Source of the DNA: an uncultured Alcaligenaceae bacterium
GTDB taxonomy: Bacteria > Planctomycetota > Planctomycetia > Gemmatales > Gemmataceae
Assembly: GCA_964423615.1 (NCBI GenBank)
Contig: CAYRFQ010000011.1
Span: 84,548-148,547 of the forward strand
Direction: 5' to 3'
Length of the DNA stretch: 64,000 bases
Made by a program: the position numbers and the translations under genes. The notes beneath the pieces are model-generated. The model saw only the letters and a list, made by a program, of their open reading frames with translations. It had not been told where the DNA came from and searched no databases. Shown piece after piece: positions 52,427 through 62,632 of this stretch (the stretch's first letter is position 1; each line of letters begins with the position of its first letter).

Positions 52427-54463
52427 ATGACAGCACCCCAAAAAGAACAACGACCGCCTTCCGGCAATCGCCGCCGTCCGGAGGCGATGCCCGGTGGTGC
52501 GCTGTGGGTTTTGATCTTGGTGCTTGTCCTGTTGGTGTTGGGATTGCTCTTTTGGCGAACGACCGGCCTCGTGGACTACAAGTCGGAGTTCATTGATCTG
52601 CTCGTGGTAAAGGGTTACGAGGCGGCTCAGGCCGAAGCAAAAAAGGAAGACAAGAAGCCCAACGCGATCCCGAACGCCTTCATCGAAGAACTCGAAATCA
52701 TTGGACGACGCGTTCAGGGGCAGTTGACACAACCAGCAGAAGAGCTGGCGTTGCCCGAAACACTCCAGGAAAAAATTCCTCAGAAGACTTTCGTCGTTTG
52801 GGTTCCTGACTCCGAAATCCAGAATGGTGCGTTGACGAGTAAGCTCGACAAGTATGGGGTGAACTACCGCAGCCGTCAGGAACAATGGAATTGGGGTGCA
52901 ACGCTCGTTTTGTTTTTGTTGCCCACGGCTCTGCTCATCGGTCTGTTCGTGTTGTTCGTGTTGCCGCGTTTTCGAGACCCATTGGGTGGTGGTTTCCTCT
53001 CGAGCTACATCAAAAGTCCAGCACGCCGCTACGAGAAAACCAAGGGTCGCGTGACGTTCGACGACGTCGCCGACATGGAATACGCCAAGAGTGAACTGCA
53101 GGAAATCGTCGAATACCTCAAGACGCCGGAGAAGTTCCAGAGGCTTGGGGCCCAAGTTCCGAAGGGCGTTCTGCTGATTGGTCCTCCGGGGACGGGGAAG
53201 ACACTTCTCGCGCGGGCCACCGCTGGTGAGGCGGGTGTGCCGTTCTTCAGCATCAGTGGTTCGGAGTTCATCCAGATGTTTGTGGGGGTCGGGGCGAGCC
53301 GAGTGAGGGACTTGTTCAAAACGGCCAAGGACACGGCCCCGTGTTTGATCTTCATCGACGAGATCGATGCCGTCGGGCGAATGCGAGGCGCAGGCGTGGG
53401 TGGTGGGTCAGACGAACGCGAGCAAACCCTCAATCAAATCTTGAGTGAAATGGATGGGTTTCAGCCGAACGAATCGATCATCGTACTTGCCGCCACGAAT
53501 CGCCCGGACGTTCTCGACTCCGCCCTTCTTCGTCCTGGTCGTTTTGACCGACACGTTACGATCGACCGGCCGACCTGGCAAGGCCGCAAGCAAATCCTTG
53601 AGGTCCACACACGCAACAAGCCCCTCGACGAAGGCGTCGACCTTGAGCAGATCGCCCGAACGATGATCGGAATGACCGGCGCCGACCTGCGTAATCTGTG
53701 CAATGAGGCCGCACTTTTGGCCACGCGAGAAGGCAAGCACCGCATCGGTCGTGTCGATTTCGAACACGCGGCGGATCGGGTGTTAATGGGCCCGAAGCGA
53801 GAAGAAGTGCTGACGACCGAAGGCAAGCAACGCACGGCCTATCACGAAGCGGGACACGCTCTCGTAGGGTGGCTCGAACCGGAATGCGACCCGCCGTTGA
53901 AGATTTCGATTGTGCCACGTGGTCGGGCGCTGGGCGTCGTCTTCAGTCTTCCGGAAGAGGAACGGTTTCACCACGGGCTCGACTACTTCAAGGCCCGTTT
54001 GGCCCAGGTCATGGGTGGCCGGGCGGCCGACCGACTCATCTATGGCCAAGCCTTCTCGGGCCACGAAGACGACCTGAAGCAAGCCACCAAGATTGCCCGC
54101 TACATGGTGACGCACTGGGGGATGAGCGACCGACTCGGACCGATGGCCTTTCGGATCGGCGAAGAGCACGTATTCCTCGGCAAAGAAATCCAGGAGGCAC
54201 GCGACTTCAGCGAGTCCACCGCTGCCGTGATCGACGAAGAAATCCAGAAACTCCTCCGGGAAGCCGACGAACGGGCCGAGCAACTGCTTGCATCGCACCG
54301 AGATTTGCTCGATAAACTTGTCGAAGCTTTGCTCGACCAAGAAGAACTCTATCGCGAGCAGATCAAAGATATCCTTGGCCCCAACACCACATCGAACGTC
54401 GAGAAAAACGGGCAGAAGGAAGAAACGACATCGCCCCAACCGAGTAGTTCGGAAAACGAGTGA
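52427..54463 (+). CDS. ftsH: ATP-dependent zinc metalloprotease FtsH
   Basis: Two TM helices are followed by the AAA Walker A motif (GPPGTGKT), Walker B (IIFIDEID), SRH, and the HEAGHAL zinc site. Confidence 0.95.
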
Positions 54464-54965: not shown

Positions 54966-57428
54966 ATGTCATCCGCCAATTCGTCGAAAATGTATTTGCT
55001 ATCCGGCAACGGTAGTACCGCCGGGTGGTGGCGTGATGCGTTGCCGCATTTCCAACGACTCGAGCCGATTCCGTTAGAACTTCCTGGGTTCGGTGATAAT
55101 CCAGATACCCGATTCCACAGCCTGGACGAATTGGCCGAAGCACTTATCGAGATGACTAAGCCGGGCCACCAGATTTTCGTGGTCGGCGTGAACGGGCTCG
55201 TTGTTTTGCACGCGTTGGTTCGTGCTCCGCGACATTTCGACCGTGTCATTCTGCTGGCACCCGTCGGGGCCTTTCTGTGGGAACGCAACTTCGTCAAAGT
55301 GATGAAGCTCAAGCCGTTTCGGAAACTGATCCACTGGATTCTTCGCACAAACCCCAAATTCTTTCGCCGCAAGTTCACCCAACAACAGTGGCCCGACGAA
55401 ACTTACGAACGTCTTGCCGAGGGCTACCGGAAGTGCCGCGCGTTCCAGCCGTATTTTGATATCGTTCAAGCTCATTCGGCGCTCAATTTGTTCGAGTGGA
55501 TCACCACACCAGTAGACTTGGTCTGGGGAACGAAAGATGGCGTGCTCGGGGTGGAACAGGCTGCGGCGTGGGACTCGATCCTGCCACGCGCTCCTTTGAC
55601 GATTACGATCCGCGAGGATTGGGGGCACTACCCTTATCTCGATGATCCAGCTGCCTTTGTTCACGATTTGGAATCGTTCCAGGGTGAGTTTCCAGCCCAC
55701 ACCAAGGCTGGTCGATTGAAACTTGCCAAACTGGCTGGGCTTCCCGTACCCAAGCAAACTTTCGTTGCCAACGTTGATGAATTGGAATCGGCCCTTGCCG
55801 ACTTTTCCCAAGATCAAGTTTACGCTGTTCGTTCGTCGGGGGTCGGGGAAGACCACATCGAGCATTCTCACGCCGGTCAGAACGAGACATTCCTTCGCGT
55901 GCCGTCTGCTGACATACACGAGAAAGTCCGCCTGTTGCTTGAAGAGCACGAATTGGCTTCAGCAGTCGTTCAGCAATTCATTGAACCTCGAGTTTCGGGT
56001 GTTGCCTTTTGCCGGTGGATGTCGCTGGAGATTGAGTACGTTTCCGGCCACCTGGAAGAATACATCAGTGGGAAGGCGACGCCGCACCGCGCGATCCTGT
56101 CGAAGATGCCGGGGGACTGGACGTTAGGTCCGCAGCCGTTGCCTCAGGAGCCAACTTTTTCCTTCACCGAACTGGGGAAATTCCTACGTCGGTGCCTTAA
56201 GGCCTTTCACTATCATCCGTCAGACATCGAGTGGGCGTGGGACGGCAGAGACTTTTACCTCCTTCAGCTACGACCAATCACGCAGTACGATTGGCGACGC
56301 TGCCTGACTTCGGCCAACCTGGACGAGTTGTTACCTCCACGAGTCAGCCGCGTCATGGAGCAAGGGCAGCGGCATGCTTCGCTTTCGATCAGTCGAATCT
56401 ACGCTTTGTGGGACCCCTGCGTTCTGAATGATCACGAGCCCTTCACGACGACGAGCAACGATGCCTCCTACATCAATGCCGACTTGTTTCTCTCTCGCAT
56501 GTTCGACTGGGGTTTACCGAGTAGCTTGCTGGCGAAAGAGATTGGCGGGGCGGTTCCGCGGTTTTCGTTCAACTTTTTTCGATTCGTCCGAAGCTTGCCG
56601 ATCCTTTTGAAGATGCAACGAGTGGTACGGCGAGAGATTCAAAAGGTTGAGCAAGGACTCCTCCAGTTCGAACAGGAGTTAACCCAACTTGAGCAGCGAG
56701 AATGGACCAGTTCTGCCCTTCGAGACGAAGCTCTCGTCAACTGGTTTGTACGATACTATGCGTTTATCGTCCGGTCGAACATGATCATTAATGCATGTTT
56801 GACGACGTCTGGGGGAAATTTCCTGGGGCGGCCTCGAACCGTCTATCGGGACATGGAAGGCGGTAAATCGCTCCATCGTCTGGAGTTCGAAAGTGATCCG
56901 GCCACACCGCGGGAGAAAGGGGAAGCTCCACCTTTGCAACCATTTCCCAAATGGGGTTTTTGGACGCGGCTTGGGAACTGGTTAGGCGTTCCGGGGTTGG
57001 GAGGTCGGTATTTCGAAGTGCGAGAGTGGTTCCGCGATAACAATATGCGTTTGTTCTTCCGATTGCATCATGCACTTCAGGGAAGCGAATGGTTGCAGCC
57101 CATTTCTGGTACCCGTGATCGCAGCGGAACCTTCTGGCAATCCGGGGGGGAAACACTGCAACAAGATTTTTCGTTCGTGATCTACCCTGGGAAAGTCACT
57201 GGGACGGTCGGAGAGGACATCTTGATCGTCGATGCACTCGAACCGGGGCACTACGAACGCTACAAGGAAGCTAAAGCCGTGGTCGCCCGCACGGGAGGGC
57301 GGTTATCTCACGGAGCAACGTTGCTCCGTGAACTGCGTAAACCATCAGCGGTGTTGCAAGAATTGCCTGCTGGGTTGGAAGTGGGACGAGAAGCGGTTTA
57401 CGACAATGGACGGCTAACAGGGAAATGA
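54966..57428 (+). CDS. Fusion protein: N-terminal α/β-hydrolase-fold-like domain + PEP-utilising enzyme (PEP synthase / rifampin-phosphotransferase-like) ATP-grasp and mobile phosphohistidine domains
   Basis: The N-terminal ~240 aa are α/β-hydrolase-like. The central region matches the PPDK_N/PEP-synthase nucleotide-binding domain (VYAVRSSGVGEDHIEHSHAGQNETFL...VVQQFIEPRVSGVAF...DIEWAWDGRDFYLLQLRPIT). The C-terminus is the mobile His domain (VVARTGGRLSHGATLLRELRKPSAV). Confidence 0.7.
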   Translation: MSSANSSKMYLLSGNGSTAGWWRDALPHFQRLEPIPLELPGFGDNPDTRFHSLDELAEALIEMTKPGHQIFVVGVNGLVVLHALVRAPRHFDRVILLAPVGAFLWERNFVKVMKLKPFRKLIHWILRTNPKFFRRKFTQQQWPDETYERLAEGYRKCRAFQPYFDIVQAHSALNLFEWITTPVDLVWGTKDGVLGVEQAAAWDSILPRAPLTITIREDWGHYPYLDDPAAFVHDLESFQGEFPAHTKAGRLKLAKLAGLPVPKQTFVANVDELESALADFSQDQVYAVRSSGVGEDHIEHSHAGQNETFLRVPSADIHEKVRLLLEEHELASAVVQQFIEPRVSGVAFCRWMSLEIEYVSGHLEEYISGKATPHRAILSKMPGDWTLGPQPLPQEPTFSFTELGKFLRRCLKAFHYHPSDIEWAWDGRDFYLLQLRPITQYDWRRCLTSANLDELLPPRVSRVMEQGQRHASLSISRIYALWDPCVLNDHEPFTTTSNDASYINADLFLSRMFDWGLPSSLLAKEIGGAVPRFSFNFFRFVRSLPILLKMQRVVRREIQKVEQGLLQFEQELTQLEQREWTSSALRDEALVNWFVRYYAFIVRSNMIINACLTTSGGNFLGRPRTVYRDMEGGKSLHRLEFESDPATPREKGEAPPLQPFPKWGFWTRLGNWLGVPGLGGRYFEVREWFRDNNMRLFFRLHHALQGSEWLQPISGTRDRSGTFWQSGGETLQQDFSFVIYPGKVTGTVGEDILIVDALEPGHYERYKEAKAVVARTGGRLSHGATLLRELRKPSAVLQELPAGLEVGREAVYDNGRLTGK

Positions 57429-57848: not shown

Positions 57849-58763
57849 TCGATTTCCTTTTCCTTGCCAATTTAAGCGGGTTGCGAATGGGTGTCGCGTC
57901 TGTGAGCTTGTGTCGGGTAGGATAGGAAACTTGCGACTATTACCCACCACAAAGTTCCATGGTATGCCTACGCTTCGTTGCGGCCTCGCTTGTCAAACCC
58001 GACGGCAAAACTCGAACCGATTCTGATCGCTACATTCATTTGCAATCCGCTCCAATGCGCTCGTATGCTATCGACCCGACGAAAGAGTGACAAGAGGACT
58101 CTGACTCGCCCAGACCTAAGAAGTAAGGTCTTGAGGGATTACAAAATCCTCAGGGATTCGTTGCATCAAAACAACTGAGGCATCCATGAACAAAAGCCAA
58201 TGAAGTTTTCAGAGAACTGGGATTGATTCTGTGTAGGCAGCCAGTGTGGGAATTGGGGAAAACTGTTTCCGAGCCAGACCTGGATGAGAACGGCTAACGC
58301 TTGTGTCGACTACAACTGACGTGGCCAAGGGAGGTACGAGTCGGGAAAACAATGGCCTTAACGGAGCTATCTTGGGACATTAGCGGACCAATTACAGGCT
58401 CGATTGGGTAGAGCTGTTAACATAACGTTGTCAGTCCACGGCGGCCTGCAACACCGAGGATAGGCCGACCGCAGAACGATGCTATGTCCAAAACGATCTG
58501 GCAGGTGACCTGGAAAGTCAAGTTGCCGTGTCAGGAGTCGAGACATCCAGTCTTGGCCAAGACTTGCACAACGTTTTGGGCCAGGATATGCTCTTGCAGA
58601 AGAGATAGTCGATCGAGCTTTTCCGGAAAAGCTTGGGCTGTCCTCGGGGTCTGGCTCTTTTGGCTTCTTTTACGCTTGCTCTGGTTGTTGGTTTGTGGGC
58701 AACCTCTGAGTTACCGAGGCCCCTGACTTTCGCTTCCTTCAACGTAATTGGTTTTGATACCCC

Positions 58764-61700
58764 ATGCATCGCGAGATTTCGCACATTGATGAAGTGTTCC
58801 ACCCCGAACACAACTACACGCTTTACCTCATGACGATCGTCATGGGTCTGCTGATCGGTGCGGACTTGTGGTTGATGTTTGCCGGTTGGCCCGTCGGGTG
58901 GACGAACACGGTTTCGCTCGGGCCGTTGTTGGGCGAATGGCGGATTGGATTGATCGCGGCGTTGTTGGGCGCGGCTCGAATCCTCTACACGTCGCTCGAA
59001 TCGCTTTCCGAGGGTCGCCTTGGGGCCGACATCGCCTTGGGGATTGCGTGCATCGCAGCGATCCTCCTTGGTGAACCGCTTGTGGCTGCCGAGATTGTCT
59101 TCATTGGTTTGTTCGGGGAGTGCCTCGAAAGTTTCACTTTCGAACGGACGCAGACCGCGATTCGACAACTGGTCGAAATTCAACCACGTCGGTGTTGGTT
59201 GCTCAAAGATGGTCAGGAAGTCCGTGTCTTCACCGACCAAATTGAAGTAGGCGACAAGGTGGTCGTCAAGCCGGGTGCGAGGATTCCCGCCGATGGCAAA
59301 GTCGTCGAGGGGCAATCCGCCGTCGACGCGAGCACCATCACTGGTGAATCGCTTCCGGTCGACAAGGGGCCTGGAGATCAAGTCCTGGCGGGTTCACTCA
59401 ATCAATTTGGAGCCCTCACGATCGACTGCGAACGGGTGTCGGACCAGACCGTTATCGGGCGAGTCGTCAAGCTCACTTCGGAAGCCCTCAAGAACAAAGC
59501 TGGTATCGAACGGCTGGCCGATCAGATGGCGAGGTACTTCTTGCCGGTCGTGTTGGGACTGGCGTTGCTCACGTTTTTCGGCGGCCTTGTGTACTACGGA
59601 ACGACGTGGTTTCGCGGTGCCGAAGCGGCAACGATCGACTGGAAAGTGACTTTCCGGATGGCGACGTATCCATCCCTGGCGGTATTGGTGGTTGCGTGTC
59701 CGTGTGGTTTGATCCTGGCGACCCCCGCGGCCGTCATCGCAGCCTTGGGGAGACTCGCCGGAACGGGCGTCTTGCTCAAGAGTGGTGGTGCGCTCGAACG
59801 CTTGGCGACGGTTTCGGGCTTTGCGTTCGACAAGACCGGAACGTTGACCGAGGGCAAACTCCATCTGGGCGATGTCGTTGGTCTCCACGGAACCGAAGAG
59901 AACCAACTGCTCTGGCTCGCAGCGACTGCCGAACAGAGAAGCGAACACCCGATCGCCCAAGTCATCCTGACGGAAGCCAAGAATCGCAACATTAGTTTCA
60001 CGGAAATTCAAGACTTCCAGGCCCATCCCGGTGCTGGAGTTTCGGCACGAACGTCCGAAGGCGACCTGGTGGTCGGTAACCGACGATTGATGGAGGACCG
60101 AGGAATCCACATCGGTCCGGAAGTCGAAGAGGCCCTCGAGAAGTTCGACGAAACCGGACAAACGACGCTCTTGGTGGCGCAAGACAATCAGATTCGTGGG
60201 GTCATTGGAGCTCGGGATGAACTGCGGGACGATGCGTTTTCGGTCCTCCAACAACTCCGTGAACTGGGCATTCTTGATTTGGCGTTGTTGACAGGGGATC
60301 GGAAGGCTGTTGCCAACACGATAGCCACTCGTCTCGAAATCGCCAACGTTCATGCTGAGGTGTTGCCCGCCCAAAAAGCGGAGATCGTTGGCCAGATGAA
60401 GCGATCGGCTGAGGAGCGGGTCAAAAGCCAGGCGGAAACGAAGAAGCTCTTTGCGGCTCCTGCTGAGGGGCGTGTCGCGATGGTTGGCGACGGAATCAAC
60501 GATGCTCCGGCTCTTGCGACGGCGGACGTGGGGTTGGCCATCGGTAGCGGGACGGATGTTGCTGCCGAAGCGGGCGACATCGTTTTCATGGGCGATCCAC
60601 TCAAGCCCTTGCCGTTGTTGGTGAAGCTATCGCGAGAGACCGTCTCGATCATCCGACAGAACATCCTCATTTTTGCGTTCGCGGTGAACCTTGTAGGGAT
60701 TGTGGTGACGGCGTGGTTGTGGCCGATACTGTGGCCGCTCTTTAAAGAGCTCGTTGGGTGGCAAGATTGGGAGGTGGAGTCGACGACGAGTGGTGTCATC
60801 GCGGCCGTAGTCTATCACCAATTCGGGTCGTTTGCCGTCCTGGTCAACTCGATGCGTCTGTTGTGGTTCGAACGAACTGGAGAAGGAACCGTTATTGGTC
60901 GGATTCGTTCGGGCTTCCAAGGCGTCGACCAATGGATCGAAAAGTATCTGAATGTTGGGGAAGCGATACACATCATTGCCCACCAGTGGAGGATTACCCT
61001 TCTCTGCGTGGGACTTTTGTCGGTTGGCGTGTATTTCCTGAGTGGGTTTACGCAAATCAATGCGGACGAAATCGGCATTGCCCAACGGTTCGGAAAAGTC
61101 GTGGACGAACTCAAGCCAGGATTACATTATCGTTGGCCGTGGCCAATCGAATCGGTGGCTCGCATTAAGCCCGACGCCATTCGGACTGTCACTTTGGGTT
61201 ATCGCGTGACGGACGAGAAGGGGACTCCGAAAAGTTTCTCCTGGAGTGCCAAGCACGCCGAACAGCAGCGGATTCCGGAGGAGTCGCAAACCATAACTGG
61301 GGATGGGTATTTCATAGAACTCCAAGTTGCCTTGCACTATCGGGTGAGCGATCCGAAGAGCTTTCTGTTCGAGGTTCGCGACCCGGAAGAAGTTATCCGA
61401 GCGGCTTTGGAAGCGACCCTGCGAGAAATCGCCTTGCAAAAGTCGGTTCCACAAATGTTGACCGAGCAGCGTGAAAAACTGGAGGAGCAAGCTCTCGCTG
61501 AGGTCACCCGGCGTTGCCTCGCTTACGGTCCGAGCGGGGTCGGTGTGGAGTTCGAGAGTCTTGCGTTGCGGGACTTACACCCACCTCCGGAAGTCGTTCC
61601 AGCATACATCAAACTTTCCAAGACGCTCGAAATCAACGAGAAGAAGATGATTCGGGCGAAGACCGAAAGTCAGCGAGCCATCGCACAAGCCCAAGCGGAC

Positions 61701-62009
61701 AAGCAACAAACCAGCGAAGTCGCGGCCGCTGCCAAGGATAGCACTATCGCCAAGAAAATGGCGTGGATGCAAGCCAACCTCACGGTAGCTGAAGCACGGA
61801 AGAAAAATCCCCAATTGACGGATATGGAACTTGCACTGAAGGCCAAGGAAGAAACTTTGAGAGATCGCACGATTCATCTTTCGAACCCTGATTATGTCAT
61901 CGTTCGATTGGTCTACTACGGGCGGGATCTTGTGAATTCGTTACGGAGGTTGGTTCCGACGTTTCGACCGGGACCGGAACCGCGGCGACCGTTCGAGCCA
62001 GGAAGATAG
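58764..62009 (+). CDS. P1B-type heavy-metal-translocating ATPase fused to C-terminal HflK-like SPFH (band 7) domain
   Basis: The TM metal site is ACPCGL (CPC). The phosphorylation site is FDKTGTLT, the hinge is VGDGINDAPAL, and the TM8-like segment is HQFGSFAVLVNSMRLL. No N-terminal HMA/CxxC domain is present. The His-rich N-terminus reads MHREISHIDEVFHPEH. After an extra TM helix (ITLLCVGLLSVGVYFL), ~300 aa align with HflK. The aligned segments are IGIAQRFGKVVDELKPGLHYRWPWPIESV..., LHYRVSDPKSFLFEV..., ...LRDLHPPPEVVPAYIKLSKTLEINEKK. Confidence 0.85.
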   Translation: MHREISHIDEVFHPEHNYTLYLMTIVMGLLIGADLWLMFAGWPVGWTNTVSLGPLLGEWRIGLIAALLGAARILYTSLESLSEGRLGADIALGIACIAAILLGEPLVAAEIVFIGLFGECLESFTFERTQTAIRQLVEIQPRRCWLLKDGQEVRVFTDQIEVGDKVVVKPGARIPADGKVVEGQSAVDASTITGESLPVDKGPGDQVLAGSLNQFGALTIDCERVSDQTVIGRVVKLTSEALKNKAGIERLADQMARYFLPVVLGLALLTFFGGLVYYGTTWFRGAEAATIDWKVTFRMATYPSLAVLVVACPCGLILATPAAVIAALGRLAGTGVLLKSGGALERLATVSGFAFDKTGTLTEGKLHLGDVVGLHGTEENQLLWLAATAEQRSEHPIAQVILTEAKNRNISFTEIQDFQAHPGAGVSARTSEGDLVVGNRRLMEDRGIHIGPEVEEALEKFDETGQTTLLVAQDNQIRGVIGARDELRDDAFSVLQQLRELGILDLALLTGDRKAVANTIATRLEIANVHAEVLPAQKAEIVGQMKRSAEERVKSQAETKKLFAAPAEGRVAMVGDGINDAPALATADVGLAIGSGTDVAAEAGDIVFMGDPLKPLPLLVKLSRETVSIIRQNILIFAFAVNLVGIVVTAWLWPILWPLFKELVGWQDWEVESTTSGVIAAVVYHQFGSFAVLVNSMRLLWFERTGEGTVIGRIRSGFQGVDQWIEKYLNVGEAIHIIAHQWRITLLCVGLLSVGVYFLSGFTQINADEIGIAQRFGKVVDELKPGLHYRWPWPIESVARIKPDAIRTVTLGYRVTDEKGTPKSFSWSAKHAEQQRIPEESQTITGDGYFIELQVALHYRVSDPKSFLFEVRDPEEVIRAALEATLREIALQKSVPQMLTEQREKLEEQALAEVTRRCLAYGPSGVGVEFESLALRDLHPPPEVVPAYIKLSKTLEINEKKMIRAKTESQRAIAQAQADKQQTSEVAAAAKDSTIAKKMAWMQANLTVAEARKKNPQLTDMELALKAKEETLRDRTIHLSNPDYVIVRLVYYGRDLVNSLRRLVPTFRPGPEPRRPFEPGR

Positions 62010-62632
62010 TGAGTTGTTGTGTTGACTTGGCTCTCGGGCAACTTTTCAGGGATAGAAACTTTCGTCCTTCTCGTTCCTCAATCCTTCTGGCCCAAGCGAT
62101 GAGATCAACCCGCGGTCTTCTTTTGGTGGTACGCTCTGAATGAAGTGATGCGAGTGGGTTTCACAGAACTTCGAAGAGTTTTTTTGTACGTGGCCACTTT
62201 GTGAAAAATGGGCATGGTGCTAAATCCTATCCCATGATGAGGCAGGGCCTTCGCATTAAAAGTTACCTGCCTTGCGATTAATTCTTCGAGATTCCCATTG
62301 GCATGAGTTTTCTCGAGCCGAAACCAAGCGTAAAATGCCGAGCCTCAAAAACTCGATGGAGAACAACCTGGCGAGTTTCGTTGAATCCCGAATCGTATTT
62401 GAGACACACATCATAGCAAAAGCAGTTTTCCGCGAGAAAGACCCCGCTTGTTACTTTGTTTCCCCAGCTTCATGCAAGCTGGGGAAAGTTTGATGCGTAG
62501 GCCCTGCATGATGAGGAGATGCGCACCATGCTGATTGTTGACTTCAGAAGCGCTGGAAAATGCATCGATTGGCGCCACTTTTCGAAAACTTTGGTAGACG
62601 AGGATAGCAGGCGATCGCGTTGCCACAAACCA

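What the first reader, a model, noticed from the sequence alone, without database searches (positions are those of the whole stretch)
58764..62009. P1B-type metal ATPase fused to an HflK-like SPFH domain, about 4 kb from ftsH
The 1081-aa ORF has a complete P-type ATPase core (CPC in the TM, DKTGT, GDGINDAP). Its TM8-like motif HQFGSFAVLVNSMRLL resembles Zn/Cd-type P1B-2 pumps. It has no N-terminal HMA/CxxC metal-binding domain, only a His-rich leader. After the last pump helix, one extra TM helix is followed by ~300 aa that align along their length with E. coli HflK (RFGK..PGLH, the ..YRVSDP..F.F.. block, the ..PPPEVV.. block, and a coiled-coil tail). HflK/HflC are the classical periplasm-facing SPFH partners that scaffold the FtsH protease, and a bona fide ftsH lies at 52427..54463. 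The extra TM would put the SPFH domain on the HflK-like side of the membrane. I am not aware of an SPFH-fused metal pump as a described architecture. It could couple metal export to a membrane microdomain or to FtsH quality control.
Basis: partly seen in the sequence, partly recalled or inferred. Interest (0 to 1): 0.8.

Follow-up and report, generated by a model that had tools for sequence, protein, structure and literature searches.

The report
Metal pump fused to HflK-like domain
This is a real, widely conserved planctomycete gene in which a heavy-metal export pump is joined to a periplasm-facing HflK-type scaffold domain; the same scaffold type, with the same special histidines, is also fused to an unrelated metal exporter family, which points to an undescribed link between SPFH scaffolds and metal efflux.

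Summary
ORF 58764..62009 (1081 aa) is a complete P1B-type ATPase, then a ninth TM helix, then an HflK-like SPFH domain. It is not an assembly artefact. More than 120 full-length proteins and about 45 uninterrupted genomic ORFs share the architecture, mostly from Gemmatales and including cultured Gemmata.

- ftsH proximity is specific to this genome. Homology to the closest relative stops at the gene's borders, and none of 82 related loci has ftsH nearby.
- The pump is not P1B-2. It has Asn where the M5 Lys should be and His where the M6 Asp should be. Its subtype is unassigned (CPC / N / YHQxGS).

New findings:
- In about two-thirds of related loci the gene heads an operon with an HflC-like and a second HflK-like gene. 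This window lacks both.
- The same SPFH clade is fused to CDF metal exporters, again followed by SPFH partner genes.
- Trp827, His831 and His939 are near-invariant in both kinds of fusion and absent from the nearest unfused HflKs.

I propose a metal exporter built into an HflK/C-type periplasmic ring, whose SPFH part binds or senses the exported metal, probably a divalent one. I found no description in the literature. Interest 0.68.

The parts
58764..62009 (+). Whole fusion gene, 1081 aa plus stop: P1B-type ATPase, linker, TM9 and an HflK-like SPFH domain
   Evidence: ORF list and translation. Pfam and NCBIfam domain hits. Identical protein P0040 in the public collection.
58764..58784 (+). N-terminal MHREISH motif. 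M1, H2 and R3 are invariant in the family. It takes the place of the usual HMA/CxxC domain.
   Evidence: Invariant columns in family alignments A2 and A3. N-termini listed. No HMA hit.
58827..59135 (+). Pump helices MA, MB, M1 and M2, including the invariant GECLE (118-122) at the cytoplasmic end of M2
   Evidence: Hydropathy, AF2 helices, invariants E119, C120, L121 and E122.
59178..59759 (+). E1-E2_ATPase region: actuator domain with TGES 193-196, then M3 and M4 with CPC 312-314 (nt 59697-59705)
   Evidence: Pfam PF00122, 7e-51. Motif positions.
59817..60527 (+). Phosphorylation and nucleotide-binding domains: DKTGT 356-360 (nt 59829-59843) and GDGINDAP 575-582 (nt 60486-60509)
   Evidence: Pfam PF00702, 1e-26. 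Motif positions.
60663..60845 (+). Pump helices M5 (634-652, invariant Asn642) and M6 (676-694, invariant Y684, Q686, G688, S689 and N695; H685 invariant in A2 and at least 90% in A3). This is the metal-selectivity signature, and it is of no named subtype.
   Evidence: Hydropathy. Invariants. M5 alignment to CopA puts N642 on the Asn of YN. M6 alone hits no solved structure.
60846..60992 (+). Cytoplasmic linker (695-743) with two predicted helices. The H736-x3-H740 pair is invariant within Gemmatales.
   Evidence: AF2 helices 710-728 and 731-740. Invariants. The pair is not conserved in distant fusions.
60993..61049 (+). Ninth TM helix (744-762). It carries the chain from the cytoplasm to the periplasm and corresponds to the single TM of HflK.
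   Evidence: Hydropathy peak of 2.07. AF2 helix 742-759. Aligns with the E. coli HflK TM region.
61053..61667 (+). SPFH/Band_7 domain (764-968), including GLHYRWPWP 786-794
   Evidence: Pfam PF01145, 1e-24. TIGR01933 hflK 102-105 bits. PDB HflK hit.
61197..61316 (+). Insert specific to the fused clade (812-851), with W827-x3-H831 (nt 61242-61256) and E840. It is absent from E. coli HflK and from the unfused relatives.
   Evidence: Alignment. Site table: W827 and H831 in 120/120 P1B-fused and 85/87 CDF-fused proteins, and in 0/40 of the nearest unfused proteins.
61572..61586 (+). D937-L-H939-P-P at the junction of SPFH and coiled coil. The His is specific to transporter-fused SPFH proteins (E. 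coli has QAARPP).
   Evidence: H939 in 120/120 and 85/87 fused proteins, against 7/40 and 2/27 unfused.
61593..62006 (+). Coiled-coil helix (944-1014) and C-terminal tail. The region between the long helix and the LTD.. segment is about 40 aa shorter than in most family members. The closest relative, L003, is the same length (1081 aa).
   Evidence: AF2 helix 944-1014, with the tail below pLDDT 50. Alignment A1. L003 length.

Best explanation
The gene encodes one polypeptide with three parts.

1. An eight-helix P1B-type ATPase, which exports a transition metal from the cytoplasm. The family signature is CPC in M4, Asn in M5 and YHQxGS in M6, and there is no HMA domain.
2. A cytoplasmic linker of about 50 residues and a ninth TM helix.
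3. A complete HflK-type module (SPFH domain, long coiled coil, C-terminal segment) that faces the periplasm.

In effect the N-terminal cytoplasmic tail of an HflK has been replaced by a whole metal pump.

Shown: the architecture, its conservation, the partner genes in relatives, the parallel CDF fusions, and the residue signature specific to the fused clade.

Inferred:
- The SPFH part oligomerises like HflK/C into a periplasmic ring or cage. In most relatives the partners would be the co-encoded HflC-like (S2) and second HflK-like (S3) subunits. In this genome the partners would be encoded elsewhere, or there are none. The ring would therefore carry pumps in its membrane rim.
- The conserved Trp827, His831, His939 and neighbouring acidic residues on the periplasmic SPFH domain bind or sense the metal the pump has just released. 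This could be an acceptor or buffer site, or a feedback sensor acting through TM9 and the linker.
- The substrate is more likely a divalent metal (Zn2+, Co2+, Cd2+ or Fe2+ class) than Cu+. The same SPFH clade is fused to CDF transporters, which carry divalent cations, and M6 has His where Cu+ pumps have Met.
For: Architecture and domains.

The fusion is real:
- The top 120 homologues are all 1066-1153 aa with ATPase, Hydrolase and Band_7.
- About 45 uninterrupted ORFs occur in independent assemblies, among 351 genomic matches that are almost all Gemmatales.
- It is present in cultured Gemmata algarum, Gemmata sp. SH-PL17 and G. massiliana.
- The apparent splits (L001, L002) are frameshifted assemblies.

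Partner genes:
- Of 41 loci with at least 2.5 kb downstream, 24 have both S2 and S3, 3 have one and 14 have none (examples).
- S2 scores as HflC (TIGR01932, 145 bits, above its cutoff of 134, in L004). S3 scores as HflK-like.
- A distant 1016-aa P1B fusion heads the same tight three-gene operon (L086).

Parallel CDF fusions:
- Cation_efflux plus Band_7 proteins occur.
- They too are followed by one or two Band_7 genes (L083, L084, L087 and L090).
- Against the core SPFH profile they score 179-197 bits. Distant P1B fusions score 192-216, S3 55-154 and canonical HflK 67-77.

Signature residues:
- W827 and H831: 120/120 P1B-fused, 85/87 CDF-fused, 0/40 in the nearest unfused HflKs (52% identical).
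- H939: 120/120 and 85/87 fused, against 7/40 unfused.

Other points:
- Both fused transporter types lack their families' usual cytoplasmic metal-binding regulatory domain. No HMA was detected and no ZT_dimer.
- A functional precedent exists for scaffolded P1B pumps: the PacL/Ctp 'effluxosomes' of M. tuberculosis (PMC13460109).
Against: - No experiment or 3D geometry shows that W827, H831 and H939 lie together or bind metal. I could not read model coordinates.
- The residues could instead serve a contact or an assembly role peculiar to fused subunits.
- Oligomerisation into a cage is assumed from homology only. A ring with a pump on every HflK position may be sterically strained.
- The window gene has no partner SPFH gene anywhere in 64 kb, and its coiled-coil region is shortened. 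This particular protein may therefore behave differently from the operon-encoded majority.
- The substrate is unknown. NCBIfam places the pump above the cutoff of the Cd-type subfamily model (392 vs 313.5) but not the Cu-type model (373.5 vs 397). The closest solved sequences, however, are Cu+ pumps.
- The sequence sets in the site table are phylogenetically clustered, so the counts overstate the number of independent observations.
Confidence: 0.5

Rival explanations
1. FtsH quality-control tether. The HflK-like domain recruits the pump into an FtsH-HflK/C-type complex, so that FtsH controls the turnover of the pump. Alternatively, the pump serves the protease complex.
For: The SPFH part is most similar to HflK. 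Its usual partner S2 is HflC-like and passes the HflC cutoff in L004. HflK/C is known to enclose or regulate FtsH (PMC12048511 and PMC13220708, listed). From general knowledge, FtsH degrades the P-type ATPase MgtA in enterobacteria. An ftsH gene lies 4.3 kb upstream in this window.
Against: The ftsH linkage is not conserved. No ftsH occurs in any of 82 related loci, and synteny with the closest relative ends at the gene borders. One caveat: the loci reach only about 3.9 kb upstream of the gene. The features that distinguish fused from unfused SPFH proteins are Trp/His residues shared with CDF fusions. That points to the metal and not to the protease. CDF fusions are also annotated in Altiarchaeota MAGs. 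No FtsH-contact residues could be tested.
Confidence: 0.2
2. Pure scaffold. The SPFH domain only clusters the pump into a membrane microdomain or stabilises it in the membrane, in an effluxosome-like manner, and has no metal-binding or sensing role of its own.
For: SPFH proteins generally act as membrane scaffolds. P1B pumps of M. tuberculosis need PacL scaffolds for stability and clustering (PMC13460109). Partner SPFH genes are conserved.
Against: It does not explain why the same Trp/His signature accompanies fusion to two structurally unrelated exporters and is missing from the nearest unfused HflKs.
Confidence: 0.22
3. Artefact: two adjacent genes (pump and hflK) joined by an assembly or frameshift error.
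For: Two related loci are annotated as split genes (L001 and L002).
Against: Those two are long-read assemblies with obvious frameshifts. The correct frame continues across the break. More than 120 proteins and about 45 genomic ORFs from independent projects, isolates included, are continuous. An independent Logan assembly of run SRR6462991 encodes the identical 1081-aa protein.
Confidence: 0.01

Closest known systems
E. coli HflK (with HflC), the FtsH-associated SPFH cage (PDB 7VHP, 7WI3, 9CZ1)
   Same: One TM helix, then a periplasmic SPFH domain, a long coiled coil and a C-terminal segment. It is the only solved structure hit by sequence. An HflC-like partner gene follows in most relatives.
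   Different: The HflK N-terminal cytoplasmic tail is replaced by an entire metal pump. The hflK equivalog model scores below its cutoff (102 vs 159 bits). There is an insert of about 35 aa with WxxxH, and DLHPP in place of QAARPP. A third SPFH paralogue sits in the operon. No conserved ftsH linkage exists. This window has no partner gene.
P1B-type heavy-metal ATPases: AfCopA (7R0G, 3J08), LpCopA (3RFU), ZntA (4UMV), sCoaT (7QBZ)
   Same: Eight-TM core with TGES, CPC, DKTGT and GDGxNDxP. Foldseek top hits have probability 1.0. TIGR01525 scores above its cutoff.
   Different: No HMA domain. The M5/M6 signature is N / YHQxGS: neither YN plus MxxSS (Cu+), nor K plus DxG (Zn2+), nor SPC plus HEGxT (Co2+). 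There is an extra ninth TM helix and a 320-aa periplasmic domain. No solved P-type ATPase aligns beyond about 720 columns.
CDF-SPFH fusion proteins (e.g. P0298; P0311, annotated 'FtsH protease activity modulator HflK', Altiarchaeota MAG)
   Same: The SPFH clade and the W-x3-H and D-x-H-P-P signature are the same. The topology logic is the same: an even-TM exporter plus one extra TM. Downstream Band_7 partner genes are also present.
   Different: The exporter is a secondary transporter of the cation diffusion facilitator family and not an ATP-driven pump. The taxa differ. As far as I could find, these fusions are undescribed too.
PacL-Ctp 'effluxosomes' of Mycobacterium tuberculosis
   Same: P1B pumps (CtpC, CtpG, CtpV) work inside scaffolded, dynamic membrane platforms. 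The scaffold PacL1 also binds metal (PMC13460109). CtpC likewise combines CPC with a His-containing M6 motif.
   Different: PacL proteins are small DUF1490 proteins, not SPFH. They are cytoplasm-facing and non-covalently bound. There is no homology to the domain found here.

Membership tests
P1B-type (heavy-metal) P-type ATPase | DKTGT phosphorylation motif, TGES actuator motif and GDGxNDxP hinge | tested here: met
   DKTGT 356-360, TGES 193-196 and GDGINDAP 575-582. Pfam PF00122 and PF00702 hits.
P1B-type (heavy-metal) P-type ATPase | Cys-Pro-Cys (or a variant) in M4, and an eight-helix MA, MB, M1-M6 core | tested here: met
   CPC 312-314 is invariant. Eight hydrophobic helices precede the linker. 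TIGR01525 scores 552 bits against a cutoff of 346. Foldseek top hits are all P1B pumps.
P1B-2 (Zn2+/Cd2+/Pb2+, ZntA/CadA type) | Lys in M5 (N-x7-K) and Asp in M6 (DxG-x7-N). The signature definitions are recalled from Arguello 2003. | tested here: not met
   The M5 position is Asn642 by HMMER alignment to CopA. His685 lies 10 residues before the conserved M6 Asn695, in the register of the Asp. ZntA is only the ninth-best solved hit. The TIGR01512 subfamily model does pass (392 vs 313.5), so the result at model level is mixed.
P1B-1 (Cu+/Ag+, CopA type) | YN-x4-P in M5, M-xx-SS in M6, N-terminal HMA CxxC domain(s) | tested here: not met
   M5 has VN instead of YN. M6 is YHQFGS with no MxxSS. 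No HMA hit. TIGR01511 scores 373.5, below its cutoff of 397.
P1B-4 (Co2+/Zn2+, CoaT/CzcP type) | SPC in M4, HEG[GS]T-x5-N in M6, and only six TM helices | tested here: not met
   M4 has CPC, not SPC. The M6 H-Q-x-G-S-x5-N shares only the His and the register. The MA and MB helices are present.
HflK (FtsH protease activity modulator) | Single N-in TM helix followed by a periplasmic SPFH domain, coiled coil and C-terminal segment | tested here: met
   TM9 744-762, Band_7 764-968 and helix 944-1014. The match extends over hflK model positions 3-240 of 261.
HflK (FtsH protease activity modulator) | Score above the curated equivalog cutoff (TIGR01933, 159.4 bits) | tested here: not met
   102.5 bits in the full protein and 105.4 bits for the C-terminal part alone.
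HflK (FtsH protease activity modulator) | Adjacent hflC partner gene | tested here: not met
   No second SPFH gene occurs anywhere in the 64-kb window. The feature is met in about two-thirds of related loci.
HflK (FtsH protease activity modulator) | Physical association with FtsH and modulation of it | not testable with these tools
   Only gene proximity could be examined, and it is not conserved.
SPFH / Band 7 superfamily | Band_7 domain above the Pfam gathering threshold | tested here: met
   PF01145 scores 87.8 bits against a cutoff of 23.6.

The most novel reading that the evidence does not exclude
HflK/C-type SPFH cages in these organisms may be extracytoplasmic metal-handling compartments. 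Exporters of two unrelated families are built into the cage subunits. They would discharge metal at, or into, a periplasmic proteinaceous chamber whose fused subunits carry a dedicated Trp/His metal site. The chamber would give local sequestration, buffering, hand-off for metalation, or feedback control of efflux. That would be a previously unknown function for the SPFH fold.
Probability: 0.15. Interest if true: 0.9.

Novelty: new variant of a known kind. Interest (0 to 1): 0.68.

Why it matters
What bacterial SPFH proteins do beyond HflK/C-FtsH is a long-standing open question. A covalent fusion is 'Rosetta stone' evidence for a functional partnership.

Here the same HflK-like clade has been joined to two mechanistically unrelated metal exporters, an ATP-driven P1B pump and a CDF antiporter. 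It keeps HflC-like partner genes. It has also acquired conserved periplasmic Trp/His residues that the nearest unfused HflKs lack. This makes a specific idea directly testable: that SPFH rings organise metal efflux or take part in it. The test needs only a defined set of point mutants.

Cultured Gemmata species carry the gene. For the metal-transport field, the family also defines a P1B signature (CPC / N / YHQxGS, no HMA) that fits none of the named subtypes.

Tried and rejected
- Assembly artefact: rejected.
- Conserved ftsH linkage: rejected. There is no ftsH in 82 loci, and homology with the nearest relative stops at the gene borders.
- Other conserved neighbours or regulators: clustering all flanking ORFs gave only the S2 and S3 genes. 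An apparent 24-locus cluster of small minus-strand ORFs turned out to be the antisense reading of S2 and S3.
- Metal riboswitch or other known RNA in the 810-bp upstream and 620-bp downstream spacers: nothing. There was only a 17-bit snoRNA-like chance hit. Promoter and terminator scans were at background.
- Assigning a metal from solved structures: M6 alone hits nothing in the PDB. The M5 alignment only shows Asn in the CopA position.
- The Smith et al. 2014 P1B classification paper (PMC4119550) is not held. Signature definitions are therefore partly from memory and from PMC13460109.
- Literature searches returned nothing relevant: SPFH with P-type ATPase and fusion, P1B with Band 7, CDF with SPFH, and SPFH/HflK with fused and transporter.
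- The AFDB fold library was unavailable.
- A rough NJ tree of SPFH domains mixes partial envelopes. I rely on the profile bit scores and not on its topology.
- A regex count of the motifs was imprecise. It was replaced by the profile-aligned site table.


Full report
**1. The observation**

ORF 58764..62009 (+) is real and uninterrupted, at 1081 aa.
- Pfam assigns E1-E2_ATPase to residues 139-332, Hydrolase to 352-588 and Band_7/SPFH to 764-968.
- NCBIfam gives the heavy-metal P-type ATPase model TIGR01525 at 552 bits (cutoff 346). The HflK equivalog TIGR01933 scores 102 bits over residues 764-1033, below its cutoff of 159.
- No HMA domain is detected.

Hydropathy finds the eight helices of a P1B pump: MA 22-40, MB about 58-79, M1 90-108, M2 106-124, M3 258-276, M4 307-325, M5 634-652 and M6 676-694. 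A 49-residue linker and a ninth helix at 744-762 follow. An AlphaFold2 model built on 54 homologues (pLDDT 75.8, pTM 0.59) gives the same order of elements. It shows two linker helices, TM9 at 742-759, the SPFH beta/alpha region at 762-939 and a 70-residue helix at 944-1014.

The A, P and N domains of a P-type ATPase are cytoplasmic, and M6 ends in the cytoplasm. One further TM helix therefore puts the SPFH module in the periplasm. This is the topology of HflK, and it is an inference from helix parity. The C-terminal 362 aa hit only E. coli HflK among all solved structures (E about 1e-13). The pump part folds like AfCopA, LpCopA, ZntA and sCoaT. No solved chain aligns over more than about 720 columns.

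**2. Not an artefact, and not rare**

- A search with the full protein returned the identical sequence (P0040) and 119 further proteins of 1066-1153 aa. All carry the three domains. Their names are only 'Cu+-exporting ATPase' or 'cation-translocating P-type ATPase family protein'.
- A scan of one genome per GTDB species found 351 encoded relatives. The best 80 are almost all Gemmatales/Gemmataceae.
- In about 45 of these, a single stop-to-stop ORF of 1085-1250 codons holds DKTGT upstream and the SPFH motif downstream. The exceptions lie at contig ends or in frameshifted long-read assemblies.
- Two loci annotated as 'split' (L001, L002) are such frameshift cases. The true frame runs on through M6, the linker and TM9.
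- An independent Logan assembly of a sequencing run encodes the identical protein.
- The family occurs in cultured Gemmata algarum (WP_320686641.1), Gemmata sp. SH-PL17 (AMV24446.1) and G. massiliana (UniProt A0A6P2DFU1, 'Band 7 domain-containing protein').
- A profile of the linker-SPFH part, searched against 1.84 billion cluster representatives, gave 1457 hits at E<=1e-30. The top 150 are dominated by fusions of 990-1150 aa and fragments of them. More distant 990-1040-aa P1B-SPFH variants are among them.

**3. The ftsH neighbour is a coincidence**

ORF 52427..54463 is a genuine FtsH. However, DNA homology between the window and its closest relative L003 (76% DNA identity, 83% protein identity) starts at 58760 and ends at 61987, the borders of the gene. 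None of the window's neighbours recurs in the 82 related loci. This holds for the sulfatase, FtsH, the hydrolase-PPDK-like protein and the LOG-like protein. The exceptions are one PTPS match and one DUF4058 match. One caveat applies: the loci extend only about 3.9 kb upstream of the gene, slightly less than the 4.3 kb that separate ftsH here. The complete loss of synteny makes a conserved linkage very unlikely all the same.

**4. What is conserved next to it**

In most relatives the fusion gene is followed on the same strand, after gaps of 19-190 bp, by two further single-TM SPFH genes.
- S2 (about 310-340 aa) is HflC-like. TIGR01932 gives 145 bits, above its cutoff of 134, in L004, and 99 bits in L003.
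- S3 (about 310 aa) is HflK-like, at 105-129 bits.
- Of 41 loci with at least 2.5 kb of downstream sequence, 24 have both genes, 3 have one and 14 have none.
- Several further loci outside that count also have both.
- A distant 1016-aa member (L086) heads the same tightly packed three-gene operon.

This window belongs to the minority without partners. tblastn finds no other SPFH gene in all 64 kb. Downstream lie 620 bp of non-coding DNA and a convergent LOG-like gene. L003, the closest relative, does have S2 and S3, so the separation is recent.

**5. A parallel fusion**

Among the nearest relatives of the SPFH part are proteins of 520-660 aa with an N-terminal Cation_efflux (CDF) membrane domain, one extra TM helix and the SPFH module.
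- They too are followed by one or two Band_7 genes: L083, L084, L087 and L090.
- They are numerous. At least 85 clusters of 560-617 aa appear among the top 120 hits of one query. NCBI names some of them 'FtsH protease activity modulator HflK [Candidatus Altiarchaeota archaeon]'.
- Scores against a core SPFH profile:

| Group | Bits |
|---|---|
| CDF fusions | 179-197 |
| Distant P1B fusions | 192-216 |
| S3 | 55-154 |
| Canonical HflK | 67-77 |
| S2 | below 25 |

The transporter-fused SPFH domains therefore form one clade that has been combined with two unrelated exporter families. Both exporter types lack their families' usual cytoplasmic metal-binding regulatory domain. No HMA is detected and no ZT_dimer.

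**6. A signature that tracks the fusion**

Relative to E. coli HflK, S3 and canonical HflKs, fused SPFH domains carry two distinguishing features:
- an insert of about 35 residues (812-851 here) with a W-x3-H motif (SWSAKH here, LWESTH in a CDF fusion);
- D-x-H-P-P (DLHPP 937-941) where E. coli has QAARPP.

Counts in a profile-guided alignment:

| Residue | P1B fusions | CDF fusions | Nearest unfused (339-aa HflKs) | Other HflK-like |
|---|---|---|---|---|
| W827 | 120/120 | 85/87 | 0/40 | 3/27 |
| H831 | 120/120 | 85/87 | 0/40 | 4/27 |
| H939 | 120/120 | 85/87 | 7/40 | 2/27 |

The nearest unfused relatives are 339-aa HflKs of Atribacterota-type MAGs. They are 52% identical to the CDF-fused domains and sit in plain two-gene SPFH pairs. 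The few positives among the other HflK-like proteins are probably fragments of fusions.

The two beta strands that flank the insert and precede DLHPP (852-861 and 928-939) are neighbours in the SPFH sheet of known structures. These residues may therefore lie close together. The counts come from phylogenetically clustered sets and overstate independence. The agreement between the P1B and CDF branches, which share only about 30% identity, is the meaningful part.

**7. Which metal**

- HMMER aligns Asn642 with the Asn of the CopA 'YN' motif. That is also the position of the ZntA Lys.
- Counting back ten residues from the invariant M6 Asn695, His685 falls where Cu+ pumps have Met, Zn2+ pumps have Asp and Co2+ pumps have His. 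The signature definitions are from Arguello 2003 (recalled) and PMC13460109.
- M6 alone matches nothing in the PDB.
- Whole-pump similarity ranks AfCopA (364 bits) above sCoaT (296) and ZntA (270). Yet the NCBIfam Cd-type subfamily model passes its cutoff and the Cu-type model does not.

The family thus has its own signature: CPC, N-x8-N, YHQxGS-x5-N, an invariant GECLE in M2, and an invariant N-terminal MHR(E).

A divalent substrate is the better guess. CDF proteins carry divalent cations, two of the fused CDFs show HxxxD in both TM2 and TM5 (read; Zn-type by general knowledge), and M6 has His and not Met. This is inference only. No riboswitch or regulator gene that could name the metal is present.

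**8. Mechanism**

Shown: the architecture, the topology by parity, the conservation, the partner genes, the parallel fusion and the residue signature.

Inferred: the protein is an HflK-type ring subunit whose cytoplasmic tail has been replaced by a metal exporter.
- It assembles, as HflK/C does, into a periplasmic ring or cage. In most organisms an HflC-like and an unfused HflK-like subunit would join it. This would also dilute the bulky pumps around the rim.
- Its periplasmic Trp/His/acidic site receives, buffers or senses the metal the pump releases.

Neither explains the signature shared with the CDF fusions, and neither is excluded. They could also coexist with a metal site.

**9. Novelty**

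Both parts belong to well-known families, and the proteins sit in public databases under generic names. Four full-text searches found no paper that describes a P-type ATPase-SPFH fusion or a CDF-SPFH fusion. I rate it a new variant of known kinds: a new, recurrent domain architecture with its own operon context and residue signature.

For this particular window the gene is a somewhat atypical member. It has no partner genes and a coiled-coil region about 40 residues shorter than the family consensus.

Noticed in passing
L003 7358-9273; L004 7475-9496; L086 9055-10997 (absent from the window): Most relatives carry a three-gene SPFH operon: the pump-HflK-like fusion, then an HflC-like gene, then a second HflK-like gene. 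The window and several Gemmata/Frigoriglobus loci have the fusion gene alone.
   Followed up: yes
L083 1672-5310; L087 2619-6250; L084 3540-6198; L090 5001-7692: CDF (Cation_efflux)-SPFH fusion proteins are followed by one or two Band_7 genes. They are numerous in metagenomes. Some are labelled HflK of Candidatus Altiarchaeota (archaeal MAGs), which I have not verified.
   Followed up: partly
window 61806-62006 (residues about 1015-1081): The coiled-coil/C-terminal region of the window protein is about 40 residues shorter than the family consensus, and AF2 confidence there is below 50. The 83%-identical relative L003 is the same length (1081 aa). This may affect closure of a putative cage.
   Followed up: partly
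window 57951-58763 and 62010-62632: The gene is flanked by unusually long non-coding spacers (about 810 bp upstream and about 620 bp downstream). They contain no Rfam match and no homology to the flanks of the closest relative. This is consistent with a recent rearrangement that separated the gene from its partner genes.
   Followed up: partly
window 54966-57428 (+): An 820-aa ORF combines an N-terminal alpha/beta-hydrolase domain with PPDK_N (ATP-grasp-like) and PEP-utilizer mobile domains. This is an unusual architecture.
   Followed up: no
Gemmata obscuriglobus protein VTS11588.1 (P0430): The type species has only a 639-aa 'heavy metal translocating P-type ATPase' in the same 90%-identity cluster as the 1139-aa G. 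algarum fusion. It may be truncated or split there.
   Followed up: no
L003, L007, L010, L062 (record titles): Several MAGs that carry this planctomycete-type gene are titled 'uncultured Alcaligenaceae bacterium' or 'Candidatus Kuenenia'. These are probably wrong taxonomic labels on the deposited bins.
   Followed up: no
L083 5415-7625; L003 10317-11354 (-): A PpiD/SurA-like rotamase gene lies just after the SPFH genes in one CDF-fusion locus. Another lies about 1 kb beyond them, on the opposite strand, in L003. This may be chance.
   Followed up: no
window 60969-60983 (H736-x3-H740): A His-x3-His pair in the cytoplasmic linker helix just before TM9 is invariant in the Gemmatales fusions but not in the distant P1B fusions or the CDF fusions.
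   Followed up: partly
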